This document shows positions 1 through 28,413 of a stretch of 58,666 nucleotides of DNA, one piece after another; the stretch's first letter is position 1, and every line of letters starts with the position of its first letter. Below the pieces are notes generated by a model that searched no databases, was not told the DNA's origin, and saw only the letters and a list, made by a program, of their open reading frames with translations. Position numbers and translations under genes: made by a program. The stretch lies in UHGV virus genome UHGV-1373577. One strand, given 5' to 3'. This DNA comes from a virus.

Positions 1-60
1 GGACGGCCCCCGACCATGACGACGACGAACGAGGACGGCCCCCGACCATGACGACCTACG
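1..60. repeat. Tandem imperfect ~32-bp repeats (ggacggcccccgaccatgacgacgacgaacga, then ggacggcccccgaccatgacgacc...) that include the start codon of gene 48..2030. Same unit recurs at the window end.
   Basis: Direct reading: nt 1-32 and 33-56 are near-identical. Nt 58635-58666 is a third copy. Confidence 0.6.
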
Positions 61-2030
61 ACGTGTACTCGAAGAGGGGCGCCGACAACCGCTTCGCGCC
101 CAAGGCGAGTGTCGACGCCCTCACCAATGCCCAGGTCGCCCAGGGGGCCGAGATAGGGACCCTCAAGGAGCAGGTGCGGGCCCAGCTGCTCCTGTCGAAC
201 ATGCTGCCCCGTCAGGGGGGCCCGGGCACCCCCAGCGCCCTCGTCGTCGGGTTCATCGGCGATTCCTGGAGCACCCCCGGCGCCGGAGGCCAGGGGGGCG
301 CCCCCGAGGAGGCGACCATGGTGTCCGTCGCCGCTAAGAGGCTCGGTGTCGGGGCCGCGGTCAGCGGGCAGGGGTCCACGGGCTGGGCCCATGTCCCCTC
401 CCCGCAGGGCAGCACCGGGTTCTTCAGCGCCCCTGAGCGTGTCGACGCCGTCCTCGACGCCCACCCGTCCCTGCTCGTCGTCGTCGGCTCCGTGAACGAC
501 AACTGGGCGATCGACCAGCCCCCGACCCCGGCCGACCCCGCCTCCGGCCCCAGAGCCATCAGCCAGTCCGTCAAGGCCCTTGTCGATCGCGTCAGAGACC
601 GGGCCCCCGCCCTGCCGATCATCGTCGTCGGGCCCCAGCCCACCTCCGAGTACCGCACCTACGCGGGCTCCAGCCACAAGAGCGCCGCCGCGGTCAAGGC
701 GGGTGTCGAAGCCGCCGGGGGCCTCACGAATGGGATCTGGTTCAGTGACTGGCTCGGTGTCGCGACCAGCCCGGCCACCAGGTGGGACCCGGCCTCATCG
801 CCCAACCGGCACTGGGGGCGGGGCGAGATCATCTGCTACGACGGGGTGAACTACGAGGTGACGGCCGACGCCTGGGTCCCGGGCGCGAACCCCGACGCCG
901 CCGACCCCTACCTGGCGTCGTTCCTGCCGTCGGCGCCGGTGTCGAGGAGGACGGCGGTCCTGTCGGGGCGGGGGGCCGTCGGCAAGACCCCCGCCAGCGG
1001 GACCCGGGCGCTGTGGCTCATGAACGACGAGACGCACGTGAACGTGGGCGGGGCGCAGGCGTTCGGCGTCGAGCTGGCGGACCGGGTCATCGAAGGAACT
1101 CAAGCCCTCCGGGACTGGATCATCGGGCAGGGCCCCGTGGTCGTCCGCCCGGCGCCCCCGCCCGCCCCTCCGCCGCCGGGGCCCAACCCCCCTCCGCCGC
1201 CCGCCCGGCCCACGGGGGCGCTGGCCGACGTGCGCGACGCGCGCTGGGGCGTGAAGTGGGGGGCGCTGTCGGCCACTGCGCTTCAGGGGGCGCTGTCGCA
1301 GCTGCCGGAGGGCGCGGCCGTGAGGGGGTCCGCAGCCCTGCCCGTGCGCATGAGCAAGGACGAGGGCGCGGACAGGTTCGTGACGTCCACGGTGTCGTCC
1401 ATCACCCCGAAGGGCGGCGGTGCGGCCGTGCGCATCAACCAGTCCACCATCGCCCAGCTCAAGGCCGTCGAGGACGTCAACGGGGTGGTGGCGACCCTGG
1501 GCGAGGCGCTCGACATCCTGGACGCCGCACCCGCGCGCACCCCGATCATCGTGGAGTGCATGGACACGTCGAACGACATCATCGCGGACTACTGGGTGTA
1601 CGACCAGAAGATGATGCAGTACCTGCTGGGGCGCTACGGGGCCCGGGCCGCCGAGCGGGTCATCGTCGCCACCAACGGGACGCTGAACGCGGCCAGGAGC
1701 AAGGCGAAGGCGGATGCGGCGCTGAAAGTGCTGCCCCGCCTGGCGTACAAGCCGTCCGGGCCGTGGACCGCCGAGGACGTGGGCGCCCTGAAGGCCGTGG
1801 ACATGATCGCCTGCCGGTCGAACGACACCTCCAAGCCGGAGGTGCTGGCGGCCATCAAGAACCACCCGGAGAAGCCGGGGCTGTGGTGGGCGGGCATGAC
1901 GACGGCGGCGCACGTCGACGCCGCCAAGGCGGCGTCGAAGGCGGCGGGGCTGGCGATCGAGGGCTGGATCATGGAGGCGAAGGAGGCCGCTCCGGGGGCC
2001 CTGTCGACGGCGCTGCCCGTCAGGCCGTAG
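48..2030 (+). CDS. SGNH/GDSL-hydrolase-like esterase (candidate LysB-like lipolytic lysis protein or virion enzyme). Has a Pro-rich linker and a C-terminal domain of unknown function.
   Basis: 660-aa ORF. VVGFIGDSWST (GDS block I) and VVVGSVNDN (GxND block III) motifs. PAPPPAPPPPGPNPPPPPARP linker. Sits immediately upstream of the endolysin. Confidence 0.5.
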   Translation: MTTYDVYSKRGADNRFAPKASVDALTNAQVAQGAEIGTLKEQVRAQLLLSNMLPRQGGPGTPSALVVGFIGDSWSTPGAGGQGGAPEEATMVSVAAKRLGVGAAVSGQGSTGWAHVPSPQGSTGFFSAPERVDAVLDAHPSLLVVVGSVNDNWAIDQPPTPADPASGPRAISQSVKALVDRVRDRAPALPIIVVGPQPTSEYRTYAGSSHKSAAAVKAGVEAAGGLTNGIWFSDWLGVATSPATRWDPASSPNRHWGRGEIICYDGVNYEVTADAWVPGANPDAADPYLASFLPSAPVSRRTAVLSGRGAVGKTPASGTRALWLMNDETHVNVGGAQAFGVELADRVIEGTQALRDWIIGQGPVVVRPAPPPAPPPPGPNPPPPPARPTGALADVRDARWGVKWGALSATALQGALSQLPEGAAVRGSAALPVRMSKDEGADRFVTSTVSSITPKGGGAAVRINQSTIAQLKAVEDVNGVVATLGEALDILDAAPARTPIIVECMDTSNDIIADYWVYDQKMMQYLLGRYGARAAERVIVATNGTLNAARSKAKADAALKVLPRLAYKPSGPWTAEDVGALKAVDMIACRSNDTSKPEVLAAIKNHPEKPGLWWAGMTTAAHVDAAKAASKAAGLAIEGWIMEAKEAAPGALSTALPVRP

Positions 2031-2060
2031 CGTGAACCAACGAACGAGAAGGAGGACGAC

Positions 2061-3800
2061 ATGAGCGTTGTCGGGAATGAGGCCGCGGCGAGGATGGCGT
2101 ACTGGTGCGCCACCGATGAGAAGGGGGGTGTCGGCTACGACCAGGGGACCCGGGAGGAGATCCGGGACCTGTCTTATGTCAGTACGCCTCGGCTGACCGG
2201 GGCCGTGGACTCCGACTGTTCGGCCATGGTGGCGGCGGCCTGCAACCTGGGTCTGCGGGCGGCCGGTGTCGTGCCCGCGGACGCGGGGGACGGCGACCCC
2301 CGCCTGCTGCCCGCGTCCACGTGGACGGGGTCGATGCGCTCCGAGCTGGAGGCGAGGGGCTGGCGGGAGGTCCACTGGGACGACGCCGCCATGACGCCCG
2401 ACGGCGGCTTCCGGAAGGGCGACGTGGTCCTGTCGTCGAAGGACGAGGGGGGTGTCGGGCACGTGGCCATGGTCGTGGACGACAACCCCTCTGATCCGGT
2501 CCTGGCCGAGGCGTGGATCGACGAGCGCGGGGAGATCACCGGCGGGGCCGTCGGCGACCAGACCGGAGGGGAGACCCGGCTCGTGTCCTACTCGGCGCAT
2601 ATTTATACACAGCGTGGTGCGTGGACGTCCTGCCACCGGTACGCGGGGGCGGAAGCGACCCCCGCCCCGCCCTCCGCCTCCTCCTCGTCCGCCCCCGCCC
2701 CTTCCAACGGAGGCAAGCCGGGGCCGCTGCTCGGTGTCGACATCTCCAAGTGGCAGGCGGGCATCAACATCGGCGCGGTCAACCCCGACTTCGTCATCGT
2801 GAAGGTGACGCAGGACGCCGGGGCCTACGCCACCACCAACCCGAACCACGTCGAGCAGCTGGGCGCCGCTCTGTCCCTGGGGCGGCCCACCGGTGTGTAC
2901 CACTACGTCGGGGGCGGGGACAACGGGAACGCCGACGACGCCCTCGCGGAGGCGAACAGGTTCCTGGACGCCGTCAGGGCGACCGGTCACCAGGACGACG
3001 TCTTCTACGCCATCGACTGGGAGTCGATCGAGAACTCGGCCTGGGGGAACCTGGCGTACCTGTCGATCATCGTCGGCAAGGTGCAGTCGGCCACGGGCAA
3101 GCCCGTGCTCCTGTACGCCTCCTCGGGGAGCTACCCGTGGAAGGTCGCCCAGGACTACGGGTGCGTGCCGTGGGTGGCGCAGTACGCCGACGAGGAGCCC
3201 ACCGGTTGGGACGCCTCGCCCTGGACGGACGGCTCCTGGGGCACCGAAGGGCGCATGCACCAGTACACGGGAACGGGGCGGGTGCCCGGCTACGGGGGCG
3301 ACCTGGATCTGGACGTGTGGCACGCCTCCGAGGCGGCCCTGCGAGCGCTGGCCCCCTCCGGCGGCCCTGTCGTTTCGGCCCCTCCGGCCCCCGCGCCCCG
3401 CGAGACGGCCCTCGACGGCCAGGAGCTGCTGGAGGTCGACGGCGAGTGGGGCTCACGGACCGTCGCTCGCTTCCAGCAGGTCATGGGCACCCCCATCGAC
3501 GGCGTGCTCGACGACGACGGATCCGCCTGCATCGAGGCGTTCCAGCGGTTCCTCAACGGGGCTGTCGGCCCCGCTCACCTGTCCAATCTGATCGGCGCCC
3601 CGGCCCTTGAGGTTGACGGCATCGACGGCGAGCGGACGTGGAAGGCGTTCCAGTTCCTCGTGTGGGCCTGGCACAGGGAGTACGTGCCCGACGGCTGGGA
3701 CTTCGGCGACTGGATCGACGGCGTCGACGGCCCCGCCACCGTCAAGGCCCTCCAGCGGGCGCTGAACGTGTCGACGGCGGGCACCGGTAGACTGTGGTGA
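2061..3800 (+). CDS. Endolysin: N-terminal NlpC/P60-type peptidase, central GH25 muramidase, three C-terminal peptidoglycan-binding repeats.
   Basis: DCSAMV...GDVVL...GHVAMVV (NlpC/P60 Cys/His motifs). GVDISKWQAGI...DFVIVKVTQ...VYHYV...YAIDWE (GH25). Three DGxxGxxTxxAFQ repeats. RBS gaaggagga before the ATG. Confidence 0.8.
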   Translation: MSVVGNEAAARMAYWCATDEKGGVGYDQGTREEIRDLSYVSTPRLTGAVDSDCSAMVAAACNLGLRAAGVVPADAGDGDPRLLPASTWTGSMRSELEARGWREVHWDDAAMTPDGGFRKGDVVLSSKDEGGVGHVAMVVDDNPSDPVLAEAWIDERGEITGGAVGDQTGGETRLVSYSAHIYTQRGAWTSCHRYAGAEATPAPPSASSSSAPAPSNGGKPGPLLGVDISKWQAGINIGAVNPDFVIVKVTQDAGAYATTNPNHVEQLGAALSLGRPTGVYHYVGGGDNGNADDALAEANRFLDAVRATGHQDDVFYAIDWESIENSAWGNLAYLSIIVGKVQSATGKPVLLYASSGSYPWKVAQDYGCVPWVAQYADEEPTGWDASPWTDGSWGTEGRMHQYTGTGRVPGYGGDLDLDVWHASEAALRALAPSGGPVVSAPPAPAPRETALDGQELLEVDGEWGSRTVARFQQVMGTPIDGVLDDDGSACIEAFQRFLNGAVGPAHLSNLIGAPALEVDGIDGERTWKAFQFLVWAWHREYVPDGWDFGDWIDGVDGPATVKALQRALNVSTAGTGRLW

Positions 3801-3847
3801 TGTCGGCCCCGGGCCGACACAGGTTGGACCGCGAGGAAGGAGGCGCC

Positions 3848-4066
3848 GTGGGCGCCTACAGCAAGAAGACATTCTGGATGGGGGTCGCCGAGCGGGCGAC
3901 CAAGACGTTCGCCCAGGCGGCCGTGGCGGCGATCGGCACGGCGGCGCTTCTGAGCGAGGTGAACTGGGTGGCGGTGGGTTCGACGGCGGCGCTGGCGGCG
4001 CTGCTGTCGGTGCTCACCGCACTGGGTGATCCCAAGGCGACCGACATCGCCGTCGCGCAGGGCTGA
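3848..4066 (+). CDS. Holin, phage_r1t-like (two transmembrane segments).
   Basis: GTG start after RBS ggaaggagg. MGAYSKKTFWMGVAERATKTFAQA matches the r1t-holin N-terminal signature. Hydrophobic stretches follow. Directly downstream of the endolysin. Confidence 0.6.
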   Translation: MGAYSKKTFWMGVAERATKTFAQAAVAAIGTAALLSEVNWVAVGSTAALAALLSVLTALGDPKATDIAVAQG

Positions 4067-4133
4067 TCCCCGCACCGCGAACCGCGCCCCCGGCACCTCA
4101 CAAGGGTGCCGGGGGTTCTTCGTGTCCGCCACT

Positions 4134-4454
4134 TTTCCACAGGGTTTTCCACAGGTGGTGTCAACCTTGGTTGCTGAGGGGTGTCTCATGCCACACCAAT
4201 GTGGTCGGGGTCATAGGGGCTCGGGCTTTCGTTGGAAAACCGCCAAAACGCCCTGTGCACGAAGTTGGGGATAACTTGTGGATAAGTGGCCTCCTGACGG
4301 GGGGCAACTGACCATTAGAACTACCGTTCTAATCGGCCCTCCACAGAACCCCTAATTTTGTCCACTTCTGCGCCCACAAGCTAAACCGTTTTAGTACACA
4401 CGGCCATCCACAGGCAAAGCCGCGTCATACCAACGAAAAGTGGGGTTATCCACA
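4134..4454. promoter_or_regulatory. Cluster of six DnaA-box-like 9-mers in an AT-richer non-coding island.
   Basis: TTTTCCACA x2 (4134-4153), TGTGGATAA (4277-4285), TTGTCCACT (4368-4376), CCATCCACA (4404-4412), TTATCCACA (4446-4454). Confidence 0.4.
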
Positions 4455-4605
4455 GGAAAACCCGCTTACTACTACTACTTCTACCTCTTACATACCGCGG
4501 AGAAGAAAAAAGAAGAGCCGTCGTACAGGGGCTCCACCCCCGGCCACCACGGTCGCTTGCGAGCGGGTAGGATGTGTGCTAAGGCAGCACAGACGAAAGG
4601 GCGCC

Positions 4606-6234
4606 ATGACCACCTTCAGCGTGTACTCCCGTGACGGAGCGAACAGGCGGTTCGCCCTCCGCACCGAGACCGACGCCATCCGCAGCCTCCTGCCCGCCCT
4701 CACCGGGACCGGCACCGTCATCACCCTGCGTACCGGCGAACACGCCCCCGCTGGTACTAGGTCCGGCACCCTCGTCCTGCGCGAGAAGGCGGCCCTCGAA
4801 GGGGGCGTCGTCGTGCGCTCCTCGGCCGTCGGGCGGGCCCAGGCCGGTGTCGGCGACCCCCTCACCGCCACCAGCCAGCCCGGCGATTTGGCCGTGCTCA
4901 TCATGGCCGCCCAGCTCCAGGCCGACCCGACGCCCTCGCCCATTCCCGAGGGCTGGACGGGGACGTGGCAGCCGCAGATCGGGGGCACCAACCGCTCCGG
5001 CTACGTGGCCACGCGGAAGGTGACGGGGGCCACCGACACCCGCGGCGTGGAATGGTGGGTGAAGACCAAGGCGTGGACCGCCAGGCAGAGGGCCGTGCTC
5101 GTCATCCTGGCCGGTGTCGACGTCGATCGGGCGGCCGCCGGGCAGTGGAGCGCGACTCTGGGCGCGGCCCCGGCGGGCGCAACGGCCCGACTGCTCGTCT
5201 CGGCGGCCCACGGCACCAAGGACAACAAGATGGCGGCCTGGACCCTTGAGGGCGGGGCCGTCGTCGCCGACGGGCTGGCGGACGTGTCGACCACGGAGTC
5301 CTGGTCGGCGGTGCGCGCGGTGCTGGGCGGGGCCGACAAGCCCCCGGACGGGGCCGGAGCGAATCCCCCGGCCGCCTGGGCGCAGGTGGGCCTGGTGGCG
5401 AAGGCCGCCGGTGGGGGCGAGGATCTCGACGGGACGACGGTGCCCCTGCGGTTCGGGGGCGAGGCCACCCGGGCGGGGGTGTCGATCATGCCCTACGGGG
5501 CCCGGTCCGTCTCTGCGCTGAAGGAGGCGGGCGCAGGGCGCAAGAATCTTGTTATCGGGCACCGGGGCATGAGCGGGGCCGGGGATGTCGTGGAGCACAC
5601 CATGGCCGCGTACACCCGGGCGGTGGAGTGCGGTGTCGACGCCCTGGAGATCTCCTGCCACCGGACCTCCGACGGGGTGTGGCTCGCGTCGCACGACTCC
5701 ACTCTGGCGCGTCTGGGAGGCCCCTCCACGCCCATTCGGGACATGACCTGGGCCCAGGTGCAGGCGGCGTTCGCCGCTCGGCCCGAGGCCGTGCCGGTGA
5801 CGCTGAAGGACTACCTGGCGACCTACGGCGCAACGCACGTGACGATCTTCGACCCCAAGACGGAGATGGCCCGTTCCGACGAGTACCTGGCCCTGCTGAA
5901 GGACTACAAGGACCGTGTCGTCGTCAAGGCGTTCGCCGACGCCTGGTGGCTGTTCGCCAAGGTCAAGCAGGCCGGGTGGGCGACCTGGGGGTACGCCTAC
6001 GCCCGCAACCGCGGCCAGAACTGGTACCCGGACTTCGTCCAGGGCACGAACCTGGACTTCCTGTCGATGGAGTGGGATGCGTCGGATGACGTGTGGGCGC
6101 CGCTGGTGGCCACCGGCAAGCCGGTCATCGCCCACATCCCCGCCTCGGTCGCCCAGGCTGCGGAGGGCGCCCGCAAGGGGGCCGCGGGGTGCATCACGTC
6201 GCGCGCCGACCTCGTGGCCGGGCTGAAGGTGTAG
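4606..6234 (+). CDS. Glycerophosphodiester phosphodiesterase (GDPD) domain protein. N-terminal tag is shared with gene 48..2030.
   Basis: C-terminal VIGHRGMSGAG...VEHTMAAY...ALEISCHRTSDGVWLASHDSTL matches GDPD catalytic motifs (HRG, E..D..T.DG....HD). N-terminus MTTFSVYSRDGANRRFA parallels MTTYDVYSKRGADNRFA of gene 48. Confidence 0.65.
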   Translation: MTTFSVYSRDGANRRFALRTETDAIRSLLPALTGTGTVITLRTGEHAPAGTRSGTLVLREKAALEGGVVVRSSAVGRAQAGVGDPLTATSQPGDLAVLIMAAQLQADPTPSPIPEGWTGTWQPQIGGTNRSGYVATRKVTGATDTRGVEWWVKTKAWTARQRAVLVILAGVDVDRAAAGQWSATLGAAPAGATARLLVSAAHGTKDNKMAAWTLEGGAVVADGLADVSTTESWSAVRAVLGGADKPPDGAGANPPAAWAQVGLVAKAAGGGEDLDGTTVPLRFGGEATRAGVSIMPYGARSVSALKEAGAGRKNLVIGHRGMSGAGDVVEHTMAAYTRAVECGVDALEISCHRTSDGVWLASHDSTLARLGGPSTPIRDMTWAQVQAAFAARPEAVPVTLKDYLATYGATHVTIFDPKTEMARSDEYLALLKDYKDRVVVKAFADAWWLFAKVKQAGWATWGYAYARNRGQNWYPDFVQGTNLDFLSMEWDASDDVWAPLVATGKPVIAHIPASVAQAAEGARKGAAGCITSRADLVAGLKV

Positions 6235-6393
6235 TACGCTTGCCCGGCGGGCTTCTCATCTCTCTTCCCCCGCACGCCCCCGGTGTCGACCGTCTACGGC
6301 ACCGGGGGCATCCGCTTGCAGGAAACAGATGTGTACTGTATACTGAAACCACGGCCCGGGACGGAACGGGCCCGGAAGAGAGGAAGACGAAGC

Positions 6394-6972
6394 ATGAGCA
6401 GAATCAACGAGAGACGAGCTGAGATCCTCGCCAAGGCCAGGGCGCGCAAGGCGGAGATCGCCCACACGGCGCCATCCGAGAACACGCTACGGCGACGGGA
6501 CCAGGTCAAGCGGGTCAAGGGGCTCCTGCGCGAGTTCATCCTCGACCACGGCGTCGAGATCAAGGACGCGGGCAGGGTCACGGGGTACGAGTCCACCGCT
6601 CGGCTGCCCCGCCACCTCAGCCGCGGCATGATCGACCTTGAGGACCTCCTGGCCCTGACCGAGTACTTCGAGGACCTCGACATCACCACCATCCTGCGCG
6701 ACGTCATCCTCGGTGTCGATCTGCGCCCCGACGAGGCGCAGGCCCGCCGGGAGGGGACGATCACCCCCGACGGCGAACGGGTTGCGGCCCCCGAGGAGCC
6801 GGAAGAGGAGAAGGAGCTCAGCGCACCCTCCGTCCCCTCGCCGCAGGAGGACGAGGAGATCGTGGTCATCCAGCCCGACGCCATCGCCCCGCCGCAGGAG
6901 GACGACGAACCCTCGCTCGACACCGACGAGGGCCTGAGGGCCTGGGCCAACAGGTTCGGGTTCGCGATGTGA
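6394..6972 (+). CDS. Hypothetical protein with acidic C-terminus.
   Basis: ORF with RBS gaagaggaagacg. Coding-like composition. No motif recognised. Confidence 0.4.
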   Translation: MSRINERRAEILAKARARKAEIAHTAPSENTLRRRDQVKRVKGLLREFILDHGVEIKDAGRVTGYESTARLPRHLSRGMIDLEDLLALTEYFEDLDITTILRDVILGVDLRPDEAQARREGTITPDGERVAAPEEPEEEKELSAPSVPSPQEDEEIVVIQPDAIAPPQEDDEPSLDTDEGLRAWANRFGFAM

Positions 6973-7075
6973 CGGCTTGACAGACGCCCGACGGGGTGGG
7001 AGCATCTTCCCGGGAGACGGCATCCCGGCCCCCGGCACCAGCGGACGGTGCCGGGGGCTGCCCTATACTCGGGGC

Positions 7076-7252
7076 ATGGAATGGGACGCCAGCAAGGTAC
7101 GGGCCGACACGCTGCTACCGGACGACCCCCGGCTTCACATCGGCACCATCACAGCCGACAAGGTCAGCGCGGGAAGTTTCGATCCGGGCGCGTATCTCAC
7201 CGAGGAGCAACTCGCGTACATTCGCCGCGCCGTCATGAAGGGCTCCTCCTGA
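7076..7252 (+). CDS. Small hypothetical protein.
   Basis: 58-aa ORF. Stop overlaps the next start (TGATG). Confidence 0.3.
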   Translation: MEWDASKVRADTLLPDDPRLHIGTITADKVSAGSFDPGAYLTEEQLAYIRRAVMKGSS

Positions 7253-7440
7253 TGCTCGCCGCCGTCGCGATCATAGCGCTGCTCACAGGACTCACCCTCG
7301 GTCTCATCGCCGGGGTTCACTGGAAGGGGAAGGTGGACGATGAAAGGCTTAGTGGATTCCTCACCGAGCTCGAAGCCACGGCGGACCGGGTCGCAGTCCA
7401 GGCCCGCGAAGACGCCATCGAACGGGCGGGGCGCTATTAA
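7252..7440 (+). CDS. Small membrane-anchored protein.
   Basis: MLAAVAIIALLTGLTLGLIAGV N-terminal TM helix. Translationally coupled to the upstream ORF. Confidence 0.35.
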   Translation: MLAAVAIIALLTGLTLGLIAGVHWKGKVDDERLSGFLTELEATADRVAVQAREDAIERAGRY

Positions 7441-7492
7441 GCGCGTTGTCGACGCACCGCCCCCCACCGAGGGCGTCATCGCCCGGACGGGG

Positions 7493-8038
7493 GTGACCGA
7501 CGGGCAGGTCGACGAGGCCAAGCGGAACCTCGTCATCAACGCCCTCGTCAAGGGTGGCACCCGCGGCGACGTCGCCCACCAGGCGGGCCTCAGCGAGGCC
7601 CAGGTCTTCCGCATCGAGGAGGAGTACTACACGGGGCAGGCCATGCTGAGCGAGCACGCCCGCCTCATGAAGCAGATGGCCCGTCTCGACCGGGTGCTGG
7701 GCATGCTCGACGCCCGCGTGCAGTCCGCCCTCCTGGCCAACCCGGAGGGAGACCCCAAGTACTTCGACTCGATCCTCAAGGCCATCGACCAGACCAGCGA
7801 GCTCATGGGCCTGAAGAAGACCCGGATCCAGACCGAGGTGCGGGTCATCGAGACGAAGCAGGTGGAGGTCATCGTGTCGTTCACCCGCTCCGTCGTCGAG
7901 GCCATGGAGGCCAGGCTTCGGCCCATGCTAACGATCGCGGGGCGCGAGGAGCTGGAGGCCAAGCGGGAGGAGTGGCTGGCGCAGGCCACGCAGGCCAGCG
8001 CGGAGATCCTTGAGGCCACCGCGCCGATGGAGCTGTGA
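7493..8038 (+). CDS. Terminase small subunit candidate (HTH-containing). Start is uncertain.
   Basis: Helix-turn-helix-like GGTRGDVAHQAGLSEAQVFRI. Directly upstream of, and overlapping, the large terminase. Confidence 0.4.
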   Translation: MTDGQVDEAKRNLVINALVKGGTRGDVAHQAGLSEAQVFRIEEEYYTGQAMLSEHARLMKQMARLDRVLGMLDARVQSALLANPEGDPKYFDSILKAIDQTSELMGLKKTRIQTEVRVIETKQVEVIVSFTRSVVEAMEARLRPMLTIAGREELEAKREEWLAQATQASAEILEATAPMEL

Positions 8039-8042
8039 GCGC

Positions 8043-9608
8043 ATGACACCGGTTCTAGATTTTCGGGCCGTGGCCGCCTCGTTCGGCGAGGGGGCCAGGG
8101 CGGAGCGCCTGTCGAGGGACCCGGTGGCCTGGGTGGAGGAGCGCCTGGGCGAGCACGTGTGGTCCAAGCAGCGCGAGGCATTGGAATCCGTTATAAGCAA
8201 CAAGCGAACGATGGTCGCCTCTTGTCACGGTTCAGGGAAAACGTGGCTTGCGTCACGTTTGATCGGGTGGTGGCTCGACACTAAGGATACAGCACCCACC
8301 GAAACCCGCATCATCACCACCGCCCCCTCCTGGAACCAGGTCGCCAACGTCATGTGGGGCTACGTCGACGAAGTTCGCCAGAAGGCCGGCATGCCCGGCA
8401 ACATCACCGCCAAGGCGTCATGGACCTTCCCCGGCTACAAGACCCCCACCGCCTTCGGGCGCAAGCCCTCCGACTACGACGAATCCACCTTCCAGGGCAT
8501 CCACGCAACCAACGTCCTCGTCGTCGTTGACGAGGCCGGGGGCGTGCCCGAGTCGATCTTCACCTCCGTCGAAGCCATCACCACCAACGCCAACGCCCGC
8601 ATCCTCGCCATCGCCAACCCCGACGACCCCGGCTCCTACATGGCCAAGGTCTGGCGCGAGGAATCCAAGAAGGCCCCCGAAGACCGGCGCTGGAACCTCA
8701 TCACCATCTCCGCCTTCGACACCCCCAACTTCACCGGGGAGGACGTGCCCGAGAGGGCCCGCACCAACCTCCTCCAGAAGGAGTGGGTCGAGGACGCCCG
8801 CGTGCGCTGGGGCGAAACCGACCCCCGCTGGCAGGCCAAGGTTCTGGCCCGGTTCCCCGACGTCGGCGAGGACGGCCTGTTCAACCTCGGACGAGTGCTC
8901 GTGTCGATGAACGGGTACAACGACTTCGAGGAGCACGATGACCGGAAGGTGCTCGGCGTCGACGTCGGCCTGTCCATCACCGGCGACTACTCCGTCATCG
9001 CCCTCAACCGGGGCGGGCGCGTGTCGATCCTCGACAAGGTCAAGGGCTACGACGGAAACAAGCTCGCCAGGCTCATCGGGCAGCGGGTCAAGGAACTGGG
9101 CGGTGTCGACGAGATCCGCATCGACGCCGTCGGCGTGGGCCGGGGCGTGCAGGCCGTCCTCGACAACCACCTGCCCGAAGGCACCCTGGTGCGCTGGATC
9201 GTCGGCAATGCTGCGTCGCCCAACAAGCTCAAGTGGTACAACTTCCGGGCCGCCATGTACGACTCCGTCTCCGAGCTCATCAACGAGGGCGCCCTGGCCA
9301 TCCCCCCGGAGGACACCTCCGACGAGCGCACGCGGGGCCTGTACGACGAGTTCCGCACCATCAAGTACGAGTACCGCGGAACCGCCCTGCTCATCGAATC
9401 CAAGGACTCGCTCAAGAGACGGGGCGAGTCCTCGCCCGACACCATCGACGCCATCTGCTACGCCTCCATGCCCGCCGAGGTCATCGACGGCGGCGGCAAG
9501 GACCCGATCCTCGAACTCACCCTGGACACCGCCGCAGGGCCCCGTGTCGACGAGAGCCTGATCATCGACGAGTGGGGCAACGAGGCCTGGTCCTTCGCCC
9601 CGGCGTGA
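8043..9608 (+). CDS. Terminase large subunit.
   Basis: Walker-A-like SCHGSGKTWLAS. VVVDEAGGVPE (Walker B). C-terminal nuclease-like region. Position before the portal. Confidence 0.75.
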   Translation: MTPVLDFRAVAASFGEGARAERLSRDPVAWVEERLGEHVWSKQREALESVISNKRTMVASCHGSGKTWLASRLIGWWLDTKDTAPTETRIITTAPSWNQVANVMWGYVDEVRQKAGMPGNITAKASWTFPGYKTPTAFGRKPSDYDESTFQGIHATNVLVVVDEAGGVPESIFTSVEAITTNANARILAIANPDDPGSYMAKVWREESKKAPEDRRWNLITISAFDTPNFTGEDVPERARTNLLQKEWVEDARVRWGETDPRWQAKVLARFPDVGEDGLFNLGRVLVSMNGYNDFEEHDDRKVLGVDVGLSITGDYSVIALNRGGRVSILDKVKGYDGNKLARLIGQRVKELGGVDEIRIDAVGVGRGVQAVLDNHLPEGTLVRWIVGNAASPNKLKWYNFRAAMYDSVSELINEGALAIPPEDTSDERTRGLYDEFRTIKYEYRGTALLIESKDSLKRRGESSPDTIDAICYASMPAEVIDGGGKDPILELTLDTAAGPRVDESLIIDEWGNEAWSFAPA

Positions 9609-20500: not shown

Positions 20501-22963
20501 GCCGCCAACTCGTACATCGACGGGTTCATCCAGCAGCTCAAGGACCGGAAGGATGAGATCTACAAGGCCAACACGTACGAGGCGCGCACCTACTCCGGCC
20601 CCTACGACTACACCGGCACACCCATCCGCAAGTACTACAGCACCCAGGCCGGGCAGCAGGCCGAGCAGGACGTCCAGAATCTCAACAACCAGATCGAGGC
20701 CCTGGAGAACCTGCGCACGAAGCTCGGCGACGTGTCCGGGGCCGCCTCCGACGCCGTGTCGTCCCAGTCCGCCCTCGGCCAGATCGTCCAGGGGCTCACC
20801 GGCGACACCCAGGACGCCGCCGACGCCACGGGGAGCCTCGCAGACGCCACCGCCGACGCCGCCGAGGACGCCAAGACCGCCGGGCAGGCGTGGGACGAGT
20901 ACCTCCAGTCCCTCGACGCCATCGTCGACGCCGCCTTCCAGTTCACCAACGCCGAGGCGGGCATGTACTCCGCCCTCGACGAACTCAACCAGTCCTTGTA
21001 CGACAACGGCAACTCGTTCGACACGTTCACGGAGGCCGGGCGGTCCAACCTGGAGGCCCTCCAGAACTACCTGAAGGCCACCGCCCAGTACGCCGGTCGC
21101 ATGGCCGAGGAGATGGGCATGAGCGGCGTCGAGGCACAGGAGTACATCGCCTCCTATGTTCAGGCCGCCATCGACGACCTCAAGGCCCAGGGCATCGACA
21201 CCACGTGGGTGGAGGCCCAGATGTCGAACGTCGTCTCCTCCCTCGACCAGACCATCTCCGGGCCCACCGTCGACATGAGCGCCCTGAACGCGGGCCTCCA
21301 GGACGCGGTCACCAACGCCAACAACGCCGCCGCCCTCATCCAGCAGATCCTCGCGGGTGTCGGCATCCGCACCTCGTCGCGGCCCGGGGGCGGGCTGAAC
21401 ACCGGTGGGAAGCGGCTCAACAAGAACGTTCTCGGGTCGAAGGGCGGCCTGACCACTAAGCAGATCACCGCGGGGATGAGCATCGGGGCGATGGGGTTCA
21501 CCGGGGGCGGCGGCTCGGCCCGCGGCCTGGCGAACACCATGTTCCAGGGCAACAAGCAGCGCTACCAGTTCACCCCTAAGACCTCCTCCTCGGGCCACGG
21601 GGGCGGCGGAGGTGGCGGCCACCGCGGCGGTGGCGGTGGCGGCGGAGGGGGCCACGACCACACACCCCGGTCCTCCTCGTCGCGCACCAGGAAGGAGAAG
21701 ACCCCGGAGGAGATCTTCGAGGACTTCCTCTCCCGCCTCGACAAGGCCATGAACCAGGCTTTGAACAAGTTCTGGCAGAACCAGGACGCCCAGGACAAGT
21801 ACCACGCCCAGCTCAACTCGATGCGCAAGACCATCGAGGACGCCAACAAGTCAATCAAGGACCTCACCGACGACATCTGGGACCTGAACAACACCCTGTC
21901 GGAGAAGGAGAACGACCTGGCGAACCAGCGCTACTTCCAGTCCGTCGCCAAGAAGTACGGGGACACCAGCAGGCAGCGCGACATTCAGGTCGACATCGAC
22001 AAGACCACGAAGGAGATCTCCGACACGAAGAACTCCATCGCCGACAAGGAGAAGGAGATCGCCAAGACGAAGGAGGGCATGTACGCCCTCCAGGGGTACA
22101 CGGAGGCGGCCATCAACAACCGGGCCGCCCTCAAGGCCCTCCAGTCCACCATGATCGACATGATCAACGCCTACGCGGCCTCCGGGGCGTCCACGGAGCA
22201 GCTCACCGCCTACGCCGCCCAGCTGAAGCAGGAGTTCATCGCCCAGGCCACGCAGATGGGCTTCAACCAGGGCGAAGTGACCACCCTGTCCGGGGCGTTC
22301 GACAACCTCACCCGGACGATCCAGGCGGTGCCCCGCGTCGTCGACGTCGACGTGTCCGACAACGGCACCTCCGACCGCACCGGCGCCGGGATCCGCTCCA
22401 TGGCCTCCAACGGCGGGGCCGGCTACTCGGCCCCCGTCACCGCCGAGGCCGACACCTACAGGGCTGGGAAGCAGCTGAGCGATTTCACCAGGGACCGGTA
22501 CATGACGGTCTACGTTCAGGCGGTGCGCACCGGAGCGGCTCTGGGGGCCCTGGGAGCGATGGGCGGTTTCCGCTACGCCCACGGCGGCCGCGTGCCCGGC
22601 AGGGCCGGGGGCGGCGGCATGCTCGGAGGGCGCAGGCGCACCGGCAACTGGGACGCCGACGACCTGCTCGGCATCACCCCGGTCGGCGGCGTCATCGGCG
22701 TCCAGTCCGGCGAGTACGTCATGCCCCGCTCCAGCGTCGACAAGTACGGGCCCGGAATGATGGAGGCCATCCGTGCCGGGCAGTACCGCCCTGAGGTCAA
22801 GGTCAACAACAGCCCCGGCCTGTCGGGCCCCATTACGATCAACCCCAACCAGATCCACCAGCTCGCCCGGGCCGTGTCGACCGTCCTCAACCTGGACGGA
22901 CGCCAGGTCGGGGCCGCCGTCAACAACGTCAACGCCCGAAGCGGACGAAGGGGGACCTACTGA
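17567..22963 (+). CDS. Tape measure protein.
   Basis: 1798-aa mostly helical protein with an internal Gly/His-rich stretch. Follows the chaperones. RBS ggagcagcc. Confidence 0.85.
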   Translation: MAGVDDLGFKISVDASGATKGANEFTAAAGRIAEATRAMARATQGAKAAVLQNAVSGRGGAEYRTMMKQIEAYKGLIKVTRELAAARKELDGVDFSKTAQNISEAVKAMAKATRTTDYIGSPQLDKVKSQIDLYARLANVSRDLARANKELQSSLIKTNQAVAAQPKQKTELDEAAKREALSAFRGKMYRARVRQADPTASGAEVAEGVRAETQAYKELVDAIGKAEAAEEKRATVAGINQDLARARRQEADETRRLAEAEREAAEISGRSSVFRATQIADINSAIDANNRYIGALESTRFAAQDLRNYLTLLAAGFTSLSVAFVAAAASQERAFADVARTTQLSAQSAEMRALSNTYRDLSTQISTTYEDLSQIGSLGAQMGISADKLGDFTHAVAGFTTITGTNIDSATEAFGRFFEMVDNAGVEADHSGQRYMNFASQVAELGAKSVATESEILTMANSIAASAASAGIGQDAILAYATALSSLGIKQEWARGSLQRIFGSINDAVAEAGEGMNKFATVLGMTTEEAENLWRTDPSTFFNNLLTSLNNVTDSVERWTIIKNLGFKNTRDIQLLQRLSLNIDLVNESFKNSADAARNTEFLDSSLETLNATLTETIARWKNSLANLGASLGGPFLGVVKKILDGLIVIQDALSHIGDNAFGRVFLAASSGLVVFGSLVAISKVLQALVLNVAASYVSMRTNMMQAGLSGQMTWSNIYKLIKQANMALYENIGLMKTRTALERSDQAATSLGGLAAAGAAAKKNADAAKDAAKGIAEVGTAAASSAAQTGLLAKAMGGLKGVMSGIASIGPMGWIGIAATAIPVVIQLYDEWANSAKRAAEAAQQARVENLQALGGGEALTKALIQDAKEAADGTQQTFGALELAVDGSATSTKDSADALYYWIDASGNLVQATKDQAAAMGYSTLAIGDHTAALIKDAIASSDAFKSLSANDFKTLTDQGFDWKEWSRQYATGGQDAANSYIDGFIQQLKDRKDEIYKANTYEARTYSGPYDYTGTPIRKYYSTQAGQQAEQDVQNLNNQIEALENLRTKLGDVSGAASDAVSSQSALGQIVQGLTGDTQDAADATGSLADATADAAEDAKTAGQAWDEYLQSLDAIVDAAFQFTNAEAGMYSALDELNQSLYDNGNSFDTFTEAGRSNLEALQNYLKATAQYAGRMAEEMGMSGVEAQEYIASYVQAAIDDLKAQGIDTTWVEAQMSNVVSSLDQTISGPTVDMSALNAGLQDAVTNANNAAALIQQILAGVGIRTSSRPGGGLNTGGKRLNKNVLGSKGGLTTKQITAGMSIGAMGFTGGGGSARGLANTMFQGNKQRYQFTPKTSSSGHGGGGGGGHRGGGGGGGGGHDHTPRSSSSRTRKEKTPEEIFEDFLSRLDKAMNQALNKFWQNQDAQDKYHAQLNSMRKTIEDANKSIKDLTDDIWDLNNTLSEKENDLANQRYFQSVAKKYGDTSRQRDIQVDIDKTTKEISDTKNSIADKEKEIAKTKEGMYALQGYTEAAINNRAALKALQSTMIDMINAYAASGASTEQLTAYAAQLKQEFIAQATQMGFNQGEVTTLSGAFDNLTRTIQAVPRVVDVDVSDNGTSDRTGAGIRSMASNGGAGYSAPVTAEADTYRAGKQLSDFTRDRYMTVYVQAVRTGAALGALGAMGGFRYAHGGRVPGRAGGGGMLGGRRRTGNWDADDLLGITPVGGVIGVQSGEYVMPRSSVDKYGPGMMEAIRAGQYRPEVKVNNSPGLSGPITINPNQIHQLARAVSTVLNLDGRQVGAAVNNVNARSGRRGTY

Positions 22964-27289: not shown

Positions 27290-27306
27290 GAAGGGACAAT
27301 AGGACC

Positions 27307-27978: not shown

Positions 27979-27984
27979 GCCTCA

Positions 27985-28409
27985 TGTACATACCGCACCC
28001 GCCCTGGGCCAACACCCTCGACCGGGGGCTGCGCGCCGTCGGCTACGTGGCCCTGTCGCTGTTCTCCATTCGCGAGGCCGGGCTCATGCCCTACACGCCC
28101 GACGCCGCCATCTGGTACAACCTCGCCGTCCACATCGCCCTGTCGGTCATGGCGGGCGGCTGCGCGCTCGCCTGCCTGACCGGGCGCTCGCAGGCGGAGA
28201 TGGTCATCCTGCCCCTCGTCCTGGGGTGCGCGTCGGCCTCCTGGATCCTCGTCGTATCCGCCCATGGTTTCGGGGCCCGATCCGCCCTGCTCCTGTCCGT
28301 CGTGTTCCTGCTGTCGGCTAGAATGAACTGGCTGCGGTGGCTCAGACACCGCGCCATAATCCTCACCGCACTGCGTGACCGCGGCGGCCCGAACACCGAC
28401 AGGGGGTGA
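27985..28409 (+). CDS. Integral membrane protein (about 4 TM).
   Basis: Four hydrophobic segments (VGYVALSLFSI, LAVHIALSVMAGGCALACL, MVILPLVLGCASASWILVV, ALLLSVVFLLS). Confidence 0.45.
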
Positions 28410-28413
28410 TCGC

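What the first reader, a model, noticed from the sequence alone, without database searches (positions are those of the whole stretch)
48..6234. Two enzymatic proteins (SGNH-esterase-like and GDPD) share an N-terminal tag and bracket the endolysin-holin pair
Gene 48..2030 carries GDS(W) and GxND SGNH blocks, a long poly-Pro linker and an unknown C-terminal domain. Gene 4606..6234 carries a clear glycerophosphodiester phosphodiesterase catalytic core (HRG...E..D.hlT.DG....HD).

Both begin with the same about 20-aa module (MTT[YF].VYS[KR].GA..RFA). The encoding DNA is also similar (ATGACGACCTACGACGTGTACTCG versus ATGACCACCTTCAGCGTGTACTCC).

They flank the lysin and holin. An esterase here is reminiscent of LysB-type mycolyl-arabinogalactan esterases. 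A GDPD in a lysis cassette is unusual; it could attack glycerol-phosphate teichoic or lipoteichoic acids or phospholipid head groups.

The shared N-terminal tag may be a virion-docking or export signal shared by the two enzymes.
Basis: partly seen in the sequence, partly recalled or inferred. Interest (0 to 1): 0.6.

Follow-up and report, generated by a model that had tools for sequence, protein, structure and literature searches.

The report
Two tagged wall-degrading phage enzymes
A phage that probably infects mouth Actinomyces encodes an esterase and a phosphodiesterase beside its cell-bursting genes, and both start with the same short peptide, which looks like the attachment end of a small tail fibre rather than an export signal.

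Summary
Gene A (48..2030) is an SGNH/GDSL esterase with an intact Ser-Gly-Asn-Asp/His set. Gene D (4606..6234) carries a GDPD phosphodiesterase domain. They flank a GH25 endolysin and an r1t-type holin. Their first 25 residues match (13/25, E 2e-5), a match found nowhere else in the window and kept in both proteins in 16 related genomes.

New findings:
- A's "unknown" C-terminal domain is probably a catalytically dead GDPD-like domain.
- D residues 1-60 equal a separate 58-91-residue protein in Actinomyces-type phages. That protein has a tag, a collagen-like stalk, and a C-terminal "VPAGTPxGTLVVR" motif. It sits directly upstream of the enzyme.
- Most D homologues start at D residue ~68 and lack the tag.
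- Distant A homologues carry collagen-like or YATK fibre repeats right after the tag.
- Some sister lineages of A have lost the catalytic residues.
- The A and D tags change partly in concert between lineages.
- The SGNH + GDPD + endolysin linkage recurs in more than 40 loci.

Best reading (about 0.55): these are fibre-mounted, probably virion-associated enzymes that attack a teichoic-acid-like wall polymer. The main rival is non-virion lysis helpers. The LysB analogy and the export-signal idea are not supported. Both structure predictions failed.

The parts
57969..57996 (+). Perfect sigma-70 consensus promoter (TTGACA-16-TATAAT) about 95 bp upstream of gene X. Copies of GGGGGTGTCGA flank it.
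   Evidence: 12/12 match; exact motif copies at 57769, 57949, 58039, 58280.
58089..58631 (+). Gene X, 180 aa, proline-rich, no family match. It lies directly upstream of A once the circular map is closed. It is a candidate partner of the tag by position only.
   Evidence: no Pfam or PHROG family; contiguous with A in relatives; no detectable similarity to the small proteins upstream of tagged proteins in L097, Dulem virus 38 or D_HF2_7.
16..51 (+). 11-codon mini-ORF (MTTTNEDGPRP*) whose stop overlaps the start of A (ATGA). It arose by duplication of A's start region, is kept in many relatives and is absent in others.
48..2030 (+). Gene A, 660 aa: tag, helical segment, SGNH esterase with a CBM5/12-like insert, proline linker, and a degenerate GDPD-like C-terminal domain.
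48..122 (+). A tag, aa 1-25: MTTYDVYSKRGADNRFAPKASVDAL.
240..1082 (+). A SGNH/GDSL domain (about aa 65-345) with S73, G112, N150, D327 and H330. A CBM5/12-like hairpin lies at about aa 252-278.
   Evidence: (CBM_5_12 E 1.5e-4 in the Dulem virus 38 homologue, below Pfam's cut-off).
1143..1214 (+). A proline-rich linker (about aa 366-389).
   Evidence: sequence.
1215..2027 (+). A C-terminal domain (aa 390-660): probably GDPD-like, with the catalytic His/Arg/Glu/Asp/His positions not conserved.
   Evidence: family profile hits the L050 homologue, E 1.7e-8; that homologue's domain hits Pfam GDPD, E 4.4e-5, 24.1 bits against a 23.6 cut-off; weak PDB hits, mostly GDPDs; direct hhalign to D's GDPD only P 0.05.
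2061..3800 (+). Endolysin: ELLD/CHAP-like + GH25 muramidase + PG_binding_1.
3794..4066 (+). Holin (Phage_r1t_holin).
4086..4124 (+). Terminator-like hairpin with a 13-bp GC stem followed by UUCUUCGU, directly after the holin.
   Evidence: -36 kcal/mol, z -3.8. The simple terminator scan did not list it.
4133..4454 (.). Cluster of four DnaA-box-consensus sites (TTWTNCACA) in the lower-GC spacer between the holin and D.
   Evidence: 5 in the window against 0.27 expected; 4 of them here; the same insert in L027; absent in L016, L017, L030, L032 and L036.
4606..6234 (+). Gene D, 542 aa: tag, adaptor C-terminal motif, beta-rich N-domain, GDPD domain.
4606..4680 (+). D tag, aa 1-25: MTTFSVYSRDGANRRFALRTETDAI.
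4705..4785 (+). D aa 34-60 (GTGTVITLRTGEHAPAGTRSGTLVLRE). This segment is homologous to the C-terminal end of separate proteins encoded just upstream of D-type enzymes in other phages.
   Evidence: motif HMM E 4.8e-8; next window hit 0.25.
4807..5520 (+). D N-domain (aa about 68-305), predicted all-beta, with no Pfam or PDB match. It recurs together with the GDPD domain.
5539..6231 (+). D GDPD domain (aa about 312-542): H319, R320, E330, E348, H363, D364, D416 and K418 conserved. S350 replaces the usual second metal-binding Asp (E-x-S rather than E-x-D).

Best explanation
A and D are two enzymes aimed at a cell-wall polymer, each mounted on the same kind of short fibre 'handle'.

A is an active-looking SGNH esterase. 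It is followed by a catalytically dead GDPD-like domain that would serve as a binding module. D is a beta-rich domain followed by a GDPD phosphodiesterase.

The shared N-terminal 16-25 residues are the attachment end of a small trimeric fibre module (tag, then stalk, then a 'VPAGTPxGTLVVR' end-piece). In related phages this module is a separate small protein. In D it has been fused to the enzyme. In A the tag heads a coiled-coil segment.

Through this common tag both enzymes would dock to one partner. That partner is most likely a tail or baseplate component, possibly the product of the gene just upstream of A. Both enzymes would then ride on the virion.

At adsorption the esterase would remove ester substituents (O-acetyl or D-alanyl) from a glycerol-phosphate-containing wall polymer, and the GDPD would cut its phosphodiester backbone. 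This would clear the way to the cell surface.

The genes travel together with the endolysin and holin because all of them are matched to the host envelope.

Shown: the domain assignments, the reality, conservation and modularity of the tag, the fusion in D, the fibre-type sequences in homologues, and the synteny. Inferred: presence in the virion, the docking partner, the substrate, and the order of the two reactions.
For: **The tag is real and a modular unit**
- It is real and specific.
- It is conserved on both proteins in 16 genomes, with many synonymous differences.
- Most homologues of D's enzyme unit begin at D residue ~68 and have no tag.

**D residues 1-60 are a fused adaptor**
- An HMM built from the C-termini of upstream proteins hits D aa 34-59 at E 4.8e-8.
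- In L059-L061 a 61-aa protein, 'MAVTVYTKAGADAAIAAAV...VPAGTKAGTLVVRVIA*', overlaps the enzyme start by ATGA.
- In the Actinomyces succiniciruminis prophage (L098) and in L097 the same small protein holds collagen-like Gly-X-Y repeats between tag and motif.

**Fibre-type sequence follows the tag in A homologues**
- Dulem virus 38 has about 14 Gly-X-Y triplets (Pfam Collagen E 1e-4).
- Caudovirus D_HF2_7 has repeated '..YATK..L' units.

**A structural role persists without catalysis**
- A orthologues at 44-53% identity and full length have lost Ser, Asn and His in two sister lineages.

**Partial concerted change of the two tags**
- In L030, L032 and L036 both read MT[ST]VEIYSRAGA..AFA. In L027 both read MTTI.
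- A permutation test gives p 0.005 over 16 genomes and 0.076 over 7 lineage representatives.

**Neighbouring genes**
- A homologous small protein with a weak 'tail fiber protein' match (PHROG 14726, E 3.7e-4) lies directly upstream of the tag-bearing protein in L097, Dulem virus 38 and D_HF2_7.

**Precedents**
- D's best PDB sequence matches are phage GP-PDE proteins.
- The GDPD 'petal' of the phage 812 central spike is proposed to cut teichoic acid (PMC13433997).
- PHROG 16641 'tail fiber protein' matches D's GDPD.
- Three D-family members carry beta-helix domains typical of tailspikes.
- Arthrobacter phage Amigo (terminase 38% identical, similar layout) has a collagen + SGNH 'tail protein' upstream of its terminase (PMC5513430).

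**The SGNH + GDPD pairing recurs**
- In L097 an SGNH protein ends with the motif and precedes the GDPD enzyme. In L050 a D-like gene, an A-like gene and a lysin lie in a row.
Against: - No direct evidence places either protein in a virion.
- A and D are 17-23 kb away from the baseplate genes (22963..28695) and stay with the endolysin wherever that block sits. The block is found upstream of the terminase here, between the major tail protein and the tape measure in L048 and L064, and after the tail genes in prophages. This linkage fits a lysis role as well.
- The 'tail protein' labels of Amigo gp18/19 are predictions, not measurements.
- The tag has no significant match in 50,697 annotated phage genomes.
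- Both AlphaFold models failed (pLDDT 36 and 44), so no fold evidence exists for the tag, for D's N-domain or for A's C-domain.
- The co-variation signal is weak once lineages are collapsed (p 0.076).
- The GDPD domain has Ser in place of a canonical metal-binding Asp, so activity is unproven.
- Whether the hosts have glycerol-phosphate polymers was not examined.
Confidence: 0.55

Rival explanations
1. A and D are lysis-accessory enzymes and are not part of the virion. They are made late and released through holin lesions together with the endolysin. They strip and cut wall polymers to speed up cell-wall breakdown, or to destroy receptors on debris. The tag and end-piece motifs then only assemble the enzymes into oligomers or a joint complex.
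For: - A D-type GDPD lies within 1-2 kb of an endolysin in every full-length locus examined, in several gene orders and genome positions.
- A, the endolysin and the holin share one promoter-to-hairpin unit in the window.
- A and D lie far from the baseplate genes.
Against: - Collagen-like and fibre-repeat stalks with an N-terminal anchor are the hallmark of tail fibres and have no obvious use for a soluble lysis enzyme.
- The catalytic residues of A are lost in sister lineages while the protein is kept.
- The known phage GDPD structures are baseplate parts.
- Endolysin and receptor-binding genes often move together because both are host-specific (my own knowledge).
Confidence: 0.22
2. The shared N-terminus is only common ancestry. 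It is the cap or trimerisation nucleus of a mobile mini-fibre module that was recombined onto both enzymes, and there is no common docking partner.
For: - The module exists as an independent gene and has been fused or shuffled repeatedly.
- The tag is the most variable stretch of D among close relatives.
- There is no within-genome co-variation among the close relatives.
Against: - The extreme N-terminal position is kept in every case.
- The core (V/A-Y-S/T-K/R-x-G-A/T-D) is kept from the window phage to Actinomyces prophages, while the stalk behind it is replaced by a coiled coil, collagen repeats or YATK repeats.
- The A and D tags share derived changes in the L030-type and L027-type lineages.
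Confidence: 0.13
3. The similarity reflects a shared nucleic-acid element, such as a translation-initiation region or regulatory RNA at the 5' ends of both genes, rather than a protein module.
For: - The two 5' ends are 60% identical at the DNA level (36/60).
- A duplicated start region and mini-ORF lie upstream of A.
Against: - Only 5 of 11 conserved residues use the same codon in the window.
- Across genomes the amino acids are kept while codons differ.
- The upstream ribosome-binding regions differ.
- The same peptide is found on separate small proteins in distant phages with unrelated DNA.
Confidence: 0.03

Closest known systems
E. coli phage G7C tailspike gp63.1 (SGNH esterase) attached through gp66, and related branched multi-tailspike systems (K1-5, CBA120, Klebsiella phage PhiK64-1). 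This comparison rests on my own knowledge, not on a test here.
   Same: - Surface-polymer-modifying enzymes are carried on the tail.
- An SGNH esterase acts as a tail enzyme.
- Short conserved N-terminal segments attach different enzymatic spikes to a common anchor or adaptor.
   Different: - Those phages infect Gram-negative hosts and are podo- or myoviruses, and their attachment is experimentally shown.
- Here the host is probably a high-GC Gram-positive.
- The tag is only about 20 residues, with no sequence similarity to those anchors.
- The genes sit with the lysis cassette.
- Virion attachment is only inferred.
[quoted passage not shown] The PDB phage GP-PDE chains 9f49, 9eul and 9euf may be related, but I did not confirm their source.
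   Same: - A GDPD-fold domain with both conserved histidines sits in a phage protein.
- Teichoic acid is the proposed substrate.
- The phage GP-PDE chains are D's best sequence matches among solved structures.
   Different: - Identity is low and only the first half of the domain aligns.
- D has E-x-S instead of E-x-D.
- D has a different accompanying domain and a fibre-type N-terminus, not a central-spike architecture.
Bacillus subtilis GlpQ and Staphylococcus aureus GlpQ (PDB 5t9b, 2oog)
   Same: - They share the GDPD catalytic core.
- GlpQ trims glycerol-phosphate teichoic acid.
- They are the top Foldseek hits of the (poor) D model.
   Different: - They are cellular, secreted, single-domain enzymes.
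- The structural match rests on a low-confidence model (TM about 0.4, rmsd about 11 A).
Arthrobacter phage Amigo gp18 (cluster AQ), annotated 'tail protein'
   Same: - It has collagen-like repeats followed by an SGNH domain.
- It is encoded upstream of a DNA-binding protein and the terminase, in a ~59-kb genome with a related terminase.
   Different: - There is no detectable sequence similarity to A or D.
- It has no shared tag and no GDPD partner.
- Its lysis genes lie elsewhere.
- Its tail role is itself only a prediction.
Mycobacteriophage LysB
   Same: An esterase encoded next to the endolysin and holin.
   Different: - LysB has a cutinase-like alpha/beta-hydrolase fold and acts on mycolyl-arabinogalactan.
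- A has an SGNH fold and fibre-type N-terminal features.
- A's probable hosts have no mycolic acids.

Membership tests
SGNH/GDSL hydrolase (gene A) | Profile match above the curated threshold | tested here: met
   Pfam Lipase_GDSL_2, 38.8 bits against a 32.9 cut-off, E 1.7e-9.
SGNH/GDSL hydrolase (gene A) | Blocks I (GDS, Ser nucleophile), II (Gly), III (GxND, Asn) and V (DxxH) | tested here: met
   GDSW (S73), G112, GSVND (N150) and DETH (D327/H330) are present in the window. They are conserved in close relatives, Dulem virus 38, D_HF2_7 and L050, and lost in the L027/L035 and L030/L032/L036 lineages.
SGNH/GDSL hydrolase (gene A) | Esterase activity and substrate | not testable with these tools
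   This needs enzyme assays.
GDPD, glycerophosphodiester phosphodiesterase (gene D) | Profile match above the curated threshold | tested here: met
   Pfam GDPD, 58.3 bits against a 23.6 cut-off; PHROG 17803, E 4.9e-42; PDB GDPDs.
GDPD, glycerophosphodiester phosphodiesterase (gene D) | Catalytic His-Arg (HRG) and second His (HD) | tested here: met
   H319, R320 and H363-D364 are invariant or nearly invariant across the family.
GDPD, glycerophosphodiester phosphodiesterase (gene D) | Metal-binding Glu-x-Asp plus a third acidic ligand | tested here: not met
   The family has E348-I-S350 (Ser invariant) where canonical GDPDs have E-x-D. The third ligand position is Asp (D416) instead of Glu. The metal site is altered and the effect on activity is unknown.
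GDPD, glycerophosphodiester phosphodiesterase (gene D) | TIM-barrel fold | tested here: inconclusive
   The AlphaFold model has pLDDT 44. Foldseek's top hits are GlpQ, but with TM about 0.4 and rmsd about 11 A.
GDPD-like domain (C-terminal domain of gene A) | Detectable homology to GDPD | tested here: inconclusive
   The evidence is transitive. The A C-domain profile hits the L050 homologue at E 1.7e-8. That domain hits Pfam GDPD at E 4.4e-5, 24.1 bits against a 23.6 cut-off. The window domain itself has no Pfam hit, and hhalign to D's GDPD gives P 0.05.
GDPD-like domain (C-terminal domain of gene A) | Catalytic residues | tested here: not met
   The aligned positions read ARWG / ALPV / TS in the window and YNG / TFW / SE in L050, instead of HRG / E-x-D / HD.
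LysB-type mycolyl-arabinogalactan esterase | Cutinase-like alpha/beta-hydrolase domain with a G-x-S-x-G nucleophile | tested here: not met
   Lipase_GDSL_2 is the only Pfam hit of A, and the nucleophile motif is GDSW.
LysB-type mycolyl-arabinogalactan esterase | Host with a mycolic-acid outer layer | tested here: inconclusive
   The host was not identified directly. Full-length D relatives lie in Actinomyces and Arachnia genomes, and A relatives come from saliva viromes. That these genera lack mycolic acids is my own knowledge.
Phage tail fibre / virion-associated depolymerase | Fibrous trimerising segment (collagen-like, coiled coil or fibre repeats) behind an N-terminal anchor | tested here: met
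   Collagen-like repeats occur in the Dulem virus 38 homologue and in the L097/L098 mini-fibres, and YATK repeats in D_HF2_7. In the window itself there is only a predicted helix after the tag, from low-confidence models.
Phage tail fibre / virion-associated depolymerase | Physical presence in the virion | not testable with these tools
   This needs virion proteomics or cryo-EM.
Phage tail fibre / virion-associated depolymerase | Gene within or adjoining the tail/baseplate module | tested here: not met
   In the window A and D are 17-23 kb from Dit, Tal and the 675-aa tail protein. In Dulem virus 38, D_HF2_7, L097 and L098 the homologues follow the tail and lysis genes.
Sec/Tat export signal (for the tag) | Hydrophobic core after a basic N-region, or a twin-arginine motif plus hydrophobic core | tested here: not met
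   By inspection, MTTYDVYSKRGADNRFAPKAS and MTTFSVYSRDGANRRFALRTE are hydrophilic with no hydrophobic run. No signal-peptide predictor was available.

The most novel reading that the evidence does not exclude
Phages of Actinomyces-type hosts carry a portable kit for degrading a wall polymer: an SGNH esterase, a GDPD, and sometimes a dead GDPD used as a binder. The parts are wired together by two short peptide connectors, the N-terminal tag and the C-terminal 'VPAGTPxGTLVVR' end-piece. The wiring is either in series (mini-fibre, then SGNH, then GDPD, as in L097) or in parallel (each enzyme with its own tag, as in this window). This would be a cohesin/dockerin-like assembly principle for phage enzymes. 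It is genetically coupled to the lysis cassette and may serve both entry and release.
Probability: 0.25. Interest if true: 0.7.

Novelty: new variant of a known kind. Interest (0 to 1): 0.5.

Why it matters
If the model is right, it gives a simple sequence rule for finding enzyme-bearing tail fibres in uncultivated phages of oral actinobacteria. The rule is an N-terminal V/A-Y-S/T-K/R-x-G-A/T-D tag plus a 'PAGTPxGTLVVR' end-piece.

It would also show how the same enzymes are attached by fusion, by a separate adaptor, or by daisy-chaining.

It points to an esterase + phosphodiesterase pair as a two-step route through a teichoic-acid-like layer.

The short connectors could be used to mount foreign enzymes on phages. 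The enzymes themselves are candidates for agents against Actinomyces-rich biofilms.

If instead the proteins are lysis helpers, they would be a new class of lysis accessory for Gram-positive hosts that lack mycolic acids.

Tried and rejected
- **Structure prediction.** A was folded without an alignment (pLDDT 36). D was folded with a shallow alignment of 85-93%-identical relatives (pLDDT 44). Neither model can be used for the tag, D's N-domain or A's C-domain.
- **Fold search.** Foldseek on the D model only re-found GDPDs, with poor geometry.
- **Tag search in the 5.8-billion-protein index.** The 43-aa profile collected only 6 candidates and returned two fragments, which was uninformative.
- **Tag search in annotated phages.** tblastn of A's first 51 residues against 50,697 phage genomes gave one non-significant hit (E 0.8), a Halorubrum virus 'putative tail fiber protein'.
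- **DNA search.** Megablast of 1..6500 against the phage collection found no match, so there is no cultured close relative.
- **Amigo proteins.** Amigo gp18 and gp19 have no detectable similarity to D or A. Only their architecture and position are analogous.
- **Gene X.** It shows no significant similarity to the small proteins upstream of tagged proteins in L097, Dulem virus 38 or D_HF2_7. The C-terminal-motif HMM does not hit it. Its role as the tag's partner rests on position alone.
- **Within-genome tag co-variation among close relatives.** None was found (13.8 against 13.8 identities). A signal appears only when more divergent lineages are included.
- **A's C-domain against D's GDPD.** Direct hhalign gave P 0.05, which is insufficient on its own.
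- **Promoter scan.** The sigma-70 scan found no promoter in 1..8200, so how D is transcribed is unresolved.
- **Genome scan.** A 4-sequence alignment worked.
- **Chance similarity.** Rejected.

Full report
**Setting**

The window is a 58.7-kb, 68% GC tailed-phage genome. Its right-hand end joins its left-hand end. In contiguous relatives the gene at 58089..58631 (gene X) lies directly upstream of gene A.

The map reads as follows:
- a perfect consensus promoter at 57969-57996;
- gene X, an 11-codon mini-ORF, gene A (48..2030), the endolysin (2061..3800) and the holin (3794..4066);
- a strong hairpin and a 539-bp spacer;
- gene D (4606..6234), two small genes, the large terminase (8010..9608), then head and tail genes up to about 28.7 kb;
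- leftward early genes and a 2.4-kb low-GC non-coding stretch.

No cultured phage is close at the DNA level. More than a hundred 85-100%-identical D proteins exist in metagenomes, on contigs of 58-61 kb.

**Check of the observation**

- A matches Pfam Lipase_GDSL_2 above threshold. It has all four SGNH blocks: GDSW, G112, GSVND and DETH.
- D matches Pfam GDPD (E 1.6e-15), a PHROG 'phosphodiesterase' family (E 4.9e-42) and solved GDPD structures.
- The genes in between are a multi-domain GH25 endolysin and an r1t-type holin.
- The two N-termini share 13 of 25 residues (E 2e-5). Among all six-frame ORFs of the window each is the other's only hit.
- Conserved residues often use different codons, only 5 of 11 being identical. 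The constraint is therefore on the peptide.
- In every related genome that holds both genes (16 examined), both proteins begin with the tag.

**What D is**

A search of 1.84 billion representative proteins with D residues 1-310 found 28 relatives.
- Residues ~68-305, a predicted all-beta domain without a Pfam or PDB match, recur together with the GDPD domain as one unit.
- 21 of the 23 aligned family members (D included) have a GDPD domain, and three also carry beta-helix domains.
- Most homologues are 450-480 residues long and start exactly where D residue ~68 aligns. Residues 1-67 are therefore an add-on.

In more distant loci the gene immediately upstream always ends with a conserved peptide, '...L.L..G..VPAGTPSGTLIVRVA*'. 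Its stop overlaps the enzyme's start codon.
- An HMM of these C-termini finds D residues 34-59 (GTGTVITLRTGEHAPAGTRSGTLVLRE) as the only significant hit in the window (E 4.8e-8; the next is 0.25).
- In L059-L061 the upstream gene is a 61-residue protein that begins 'MAVTVYTKAGADAAIAAAV', a recognisable relative of the tag.
- In the Actinomyces succiniciruminis prophage (L098) and the Actinomyces MAG contig (L097), the same small protein has collagen-like Gly-X-Y repeats between that N-terminus and the end-piece.
- D residues 1-60 are therefore a fused copy of a stand-alone mini-fibre: tag, stalk, end-piece.

The GDPD domain keeps H319, R320, E330, E348, H363-D364, D416 and K418. An invariant Ser (S350) stands where canonical enzymes have the second metal-binding Asp. 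It is probably active, but with an altered metal site.

**What A is**

Two annotated saliva viruses encode A homologues at 33-36% identity.
- In Dulem virus 38 the protein starts 'MADLTWYSREGADGKFATKAELEAV'. About 14 collagen-like triplets follow, then the SGNH domain, a proline linker and the same C-terminal domain (Pfam Collagen E 1e-4).
- In Caudovirus D_HF2_7 the tag is followed by about 100 residues of repeated '..YATK..L' units. The second half of the tag (GAD..FA.KA..) is itself one such unit.
- In the window the corresponding stretch is predicted to be helical, though the model is of low confidence.

The SGNH domain carries a CBM5/12-like hairpin. The match is sub-threshold (E 1.5e-4 to 6e-3 in homologues).

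The C-terminal domain has no Pfam match of its own. The evidence that it is GDPD-like is indirect.
- A profile of the domain finds the A-like protein of locus L050 (E 1.7e-8 among 11,549 ORF segments).
- That protein's C-terminal domain matches Pfam GDPD just above threshold (E 4.4e-5, 24.1 bits against 23.6).
- Five of its six weak PDB hits are GDPD-family proteins.
- The positions of the catalytic His-Arg, Glu-x-Asp and His-Asp are not conserved.
- I therefore read it as a degenerate GDPD-like domain, possibly a binding module. Confidence is moderate, because direct profile-profile comparison with D gave only P 0.05.

In two sister lineages the full-length A protein (44-53% identical) has lost the Ser nucleophile, the Asn and the His. 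These are L027/L035 (GDTW, GSYED, NETA) and L030/L032/L036 (TDGF, GSFED, DEKS/NEKA). The protein is thus kept for something other than catalysis.

**Behaviour of the tag**

- Across all loci fetched (97 at that point; 11,549 ORF segments), the tag HMM hits only the N-termini of A-type and D-type proteins, apart from borderline hits to the mini-fibres of L059-L061.
- Among close relatives the two tags do not co-vary within genomes.
- Across more divergent lineages they share derived states. Both read 'MT[ST]VEIYSRAGA..AFA' in L030, L032 and L036, and both read 'MTTI.VYSK' in L027.
- A permutation test gives p 0.005 for 16 genomes and 0.076 for 7 lineage representatives. This is suggestive, not decisive.

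**Context elsewhere**

- A D-type enzyme lies within 1-2 kb of an endolysin in every locus with a full-length homologue, in several orders.
- In L048 and L064 the block (adaptor, GDPD, endolysin) sits between the major tail protein and the tape measure.
- In L097 the order is endolysin, holin, two membrane proteins, a 149-residue protein with a weak 'tail fiber protein' match, the mini-fibre, a 487-residue SGNH esterase that itself ends in the end-piece motif (Pfam E 1.6e-17), and the GDPD enzyme. All are tightly coupled.
- In L050 a D-like gene, an A-like SGNH gene and a lysin follow each other.
- The esterase + GDPD pairing and its linkage to the lysis genes are therefore conserved, while the way the parts are joined varies. 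They may be daisy-chained by end-pieces (L097), joined by a small adaptor (L048, L059, L098), or each carry its own tag (this window).
- Homologues of the 149-residue protein directly precede the tagged A homologues in Dulem virus 38 and D_HF2_7. Gene X holds that position in the window but shows no detectable similarity.

**Host**

- Full-length D relatives in genome assemblies come from an Actinomyces sp. MAG, Actinomyces succiniciruminis and an Arachnia MAG. GDPD-only relatives are chromosomal genes of Leifsonia and Microbacterium.
- Together with the 68% GC content and the saliva-derived relatives, an oral Actinomyces-type host is likely. This is an inference.

**Interpretation**

The tag is best explained as the attachment end of a small trimeric fibre module that carries enzymes.
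- Fibrous stalks behind a conserved extreme N-terminus are what tail fibres look like.
- GDPD domains are already known in Staphylococcus phage baseplates, where they are proposed to cut teichoic acid (PMC13433997).
- SGNH esterase tailspikes are known in coliphage G7C (my own knowledge).
- A phage with a related terminase and layout, Amigo, has a collagen + SGNH 'tail protein' upstream of its terminase, although that is only predicted.

I therefore favour virion-mounted enzymes at about 0.55. The esterase would remove ester substituents and the GDPD would cut a glycerol-phosphate backbone. The order of these steps and the substrate are inferred from what is known of GlpQ-type enzymes, not tested here.

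The strongest rival, at about 0.22, is that they are lysis helpers. The genes never leave the endolysin and lie far from the baseplate genes. Only virion proteomics or genetics can settle this.

The LysB analogy, an export signal, a DNA- or RNA-level element and chance are not supported.

**Limits**

- Both structure predictions failed.
- The tag search in the large protein index was uninformative.
- The GDPD-like nature of A's C-domain rests on a transitive argument.
- The host and substrate are inferred.

**Verdict**

This is a real, non-random feature. It is a new variant of a known kind: enzyme-bearing phage fibres with a conserved N-terminal anchor. Its modular wiring is unusual and its coupling to the lysis cassette is unusually tight. 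Interest is 0.5.

Noticed in passing
window 4133-4454: Four DnaA-box-consensus sites (TTWTNCACA, two of them perfect TTATCCACA) cluster in the lower-GC spacer between the holin and gene D. The whole window has 5 against 0.27 expected. The same ~540-bp insert, with 6 boxes, is present in relative L027. It is absent from others, where D follows the holin by 70-110 bp. It may be a replication origin or a host-DnaA-titrating or regulatory element.
   Followed up: partly
window 55700-58080: This is a 2.4-kb, 52% GC, apparently non-coding region between the leftward early genes and gene X. It holds 8 promoter-like sites (1.6 expected), a (GAT)n / GATGATAGAT array at 56391-56464 and three 33-bp repeats at 56525-56620.
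   Followed up: partly
window 57769, 57949, 58039, 58280 and genome-wide: The motif GGGGGTGTCGA occurs 33 times with at most one mismatch (4.2 expected). Four of the exact copies bracket the perfect consensus promoter at 57969-57996 or lie in the 5' part of gene X. It is a candidate operator or regulator site.
   Followed up: partly
window 16-51 (also 58650-58666): An 11-codon mini-ORF (MTTTNEDGPRP*) is created by a ~32-bp duplication of A's ribosome-binding and start region. Its stop overlaps A's ATG. It is conserved in L003, L004, L007, L008, L011, L012 and L013, and absent in L005, L032, L035 and L036. The window appears to carry an extra copy at its start, probably an assembly overlap at the circular junction.
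   Followed up: partly
L027:144-2000, L035:4025-5887, L030:449-2371, L032, L036: Orthologues of A in sister lineages have lost the SGNH catalytic Ser, Asn and His, yet remain full-length and 44-53% identical. They look like pseudo-enzymes retained for a non-catalytic role.
   Followed up: yes
L048:7113-11070 and L064:4822-9823: In a different group of 34-44-kb phages, the block (adaptor, GDPD enzyme, endolysin) is inserted between the major tail protein and the tape-measure gene, where tail chaperone genes normally lie. The same phages have a ~590-residue gene where separate protease and capsid genes would be expected.
   Followed up: partly
L100-L113, L117, L118 (Leifsonia chromosomes); L110, L112, L115, L116: GDPD-only relatives of D's catalytic domain (31-39% identical) are chromosomal genes in many Leifsonia genomes and in some Microbacterium, Quadrisphaera and Acidipropionibacterium genomes. 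They may be cellular wall-polymer hydrolases. Their context was not examined.
   Followed up: no
window 58089-58631, C-terminus: Gene X ends '...VLTLDPAPGNDNIVVVG*' ('VRLDTAPGADNLIVL...' in L032). By eye this loosely resembles the 'L.L..G..VPAGTPxGTLIVR*' end-piece of the adaptor proteins, and it precedes A the way those precede their enzymes. The motif HMM does not detect it.
   Followed up: partly
window 2061-3800 versus L017:896-2488: Close relatives carry endolysins with a different C-terminal (wall-binding) part while A and D stay about 85-92% identical. This indicates module swapping inside the lysis block.
   Followed up: no
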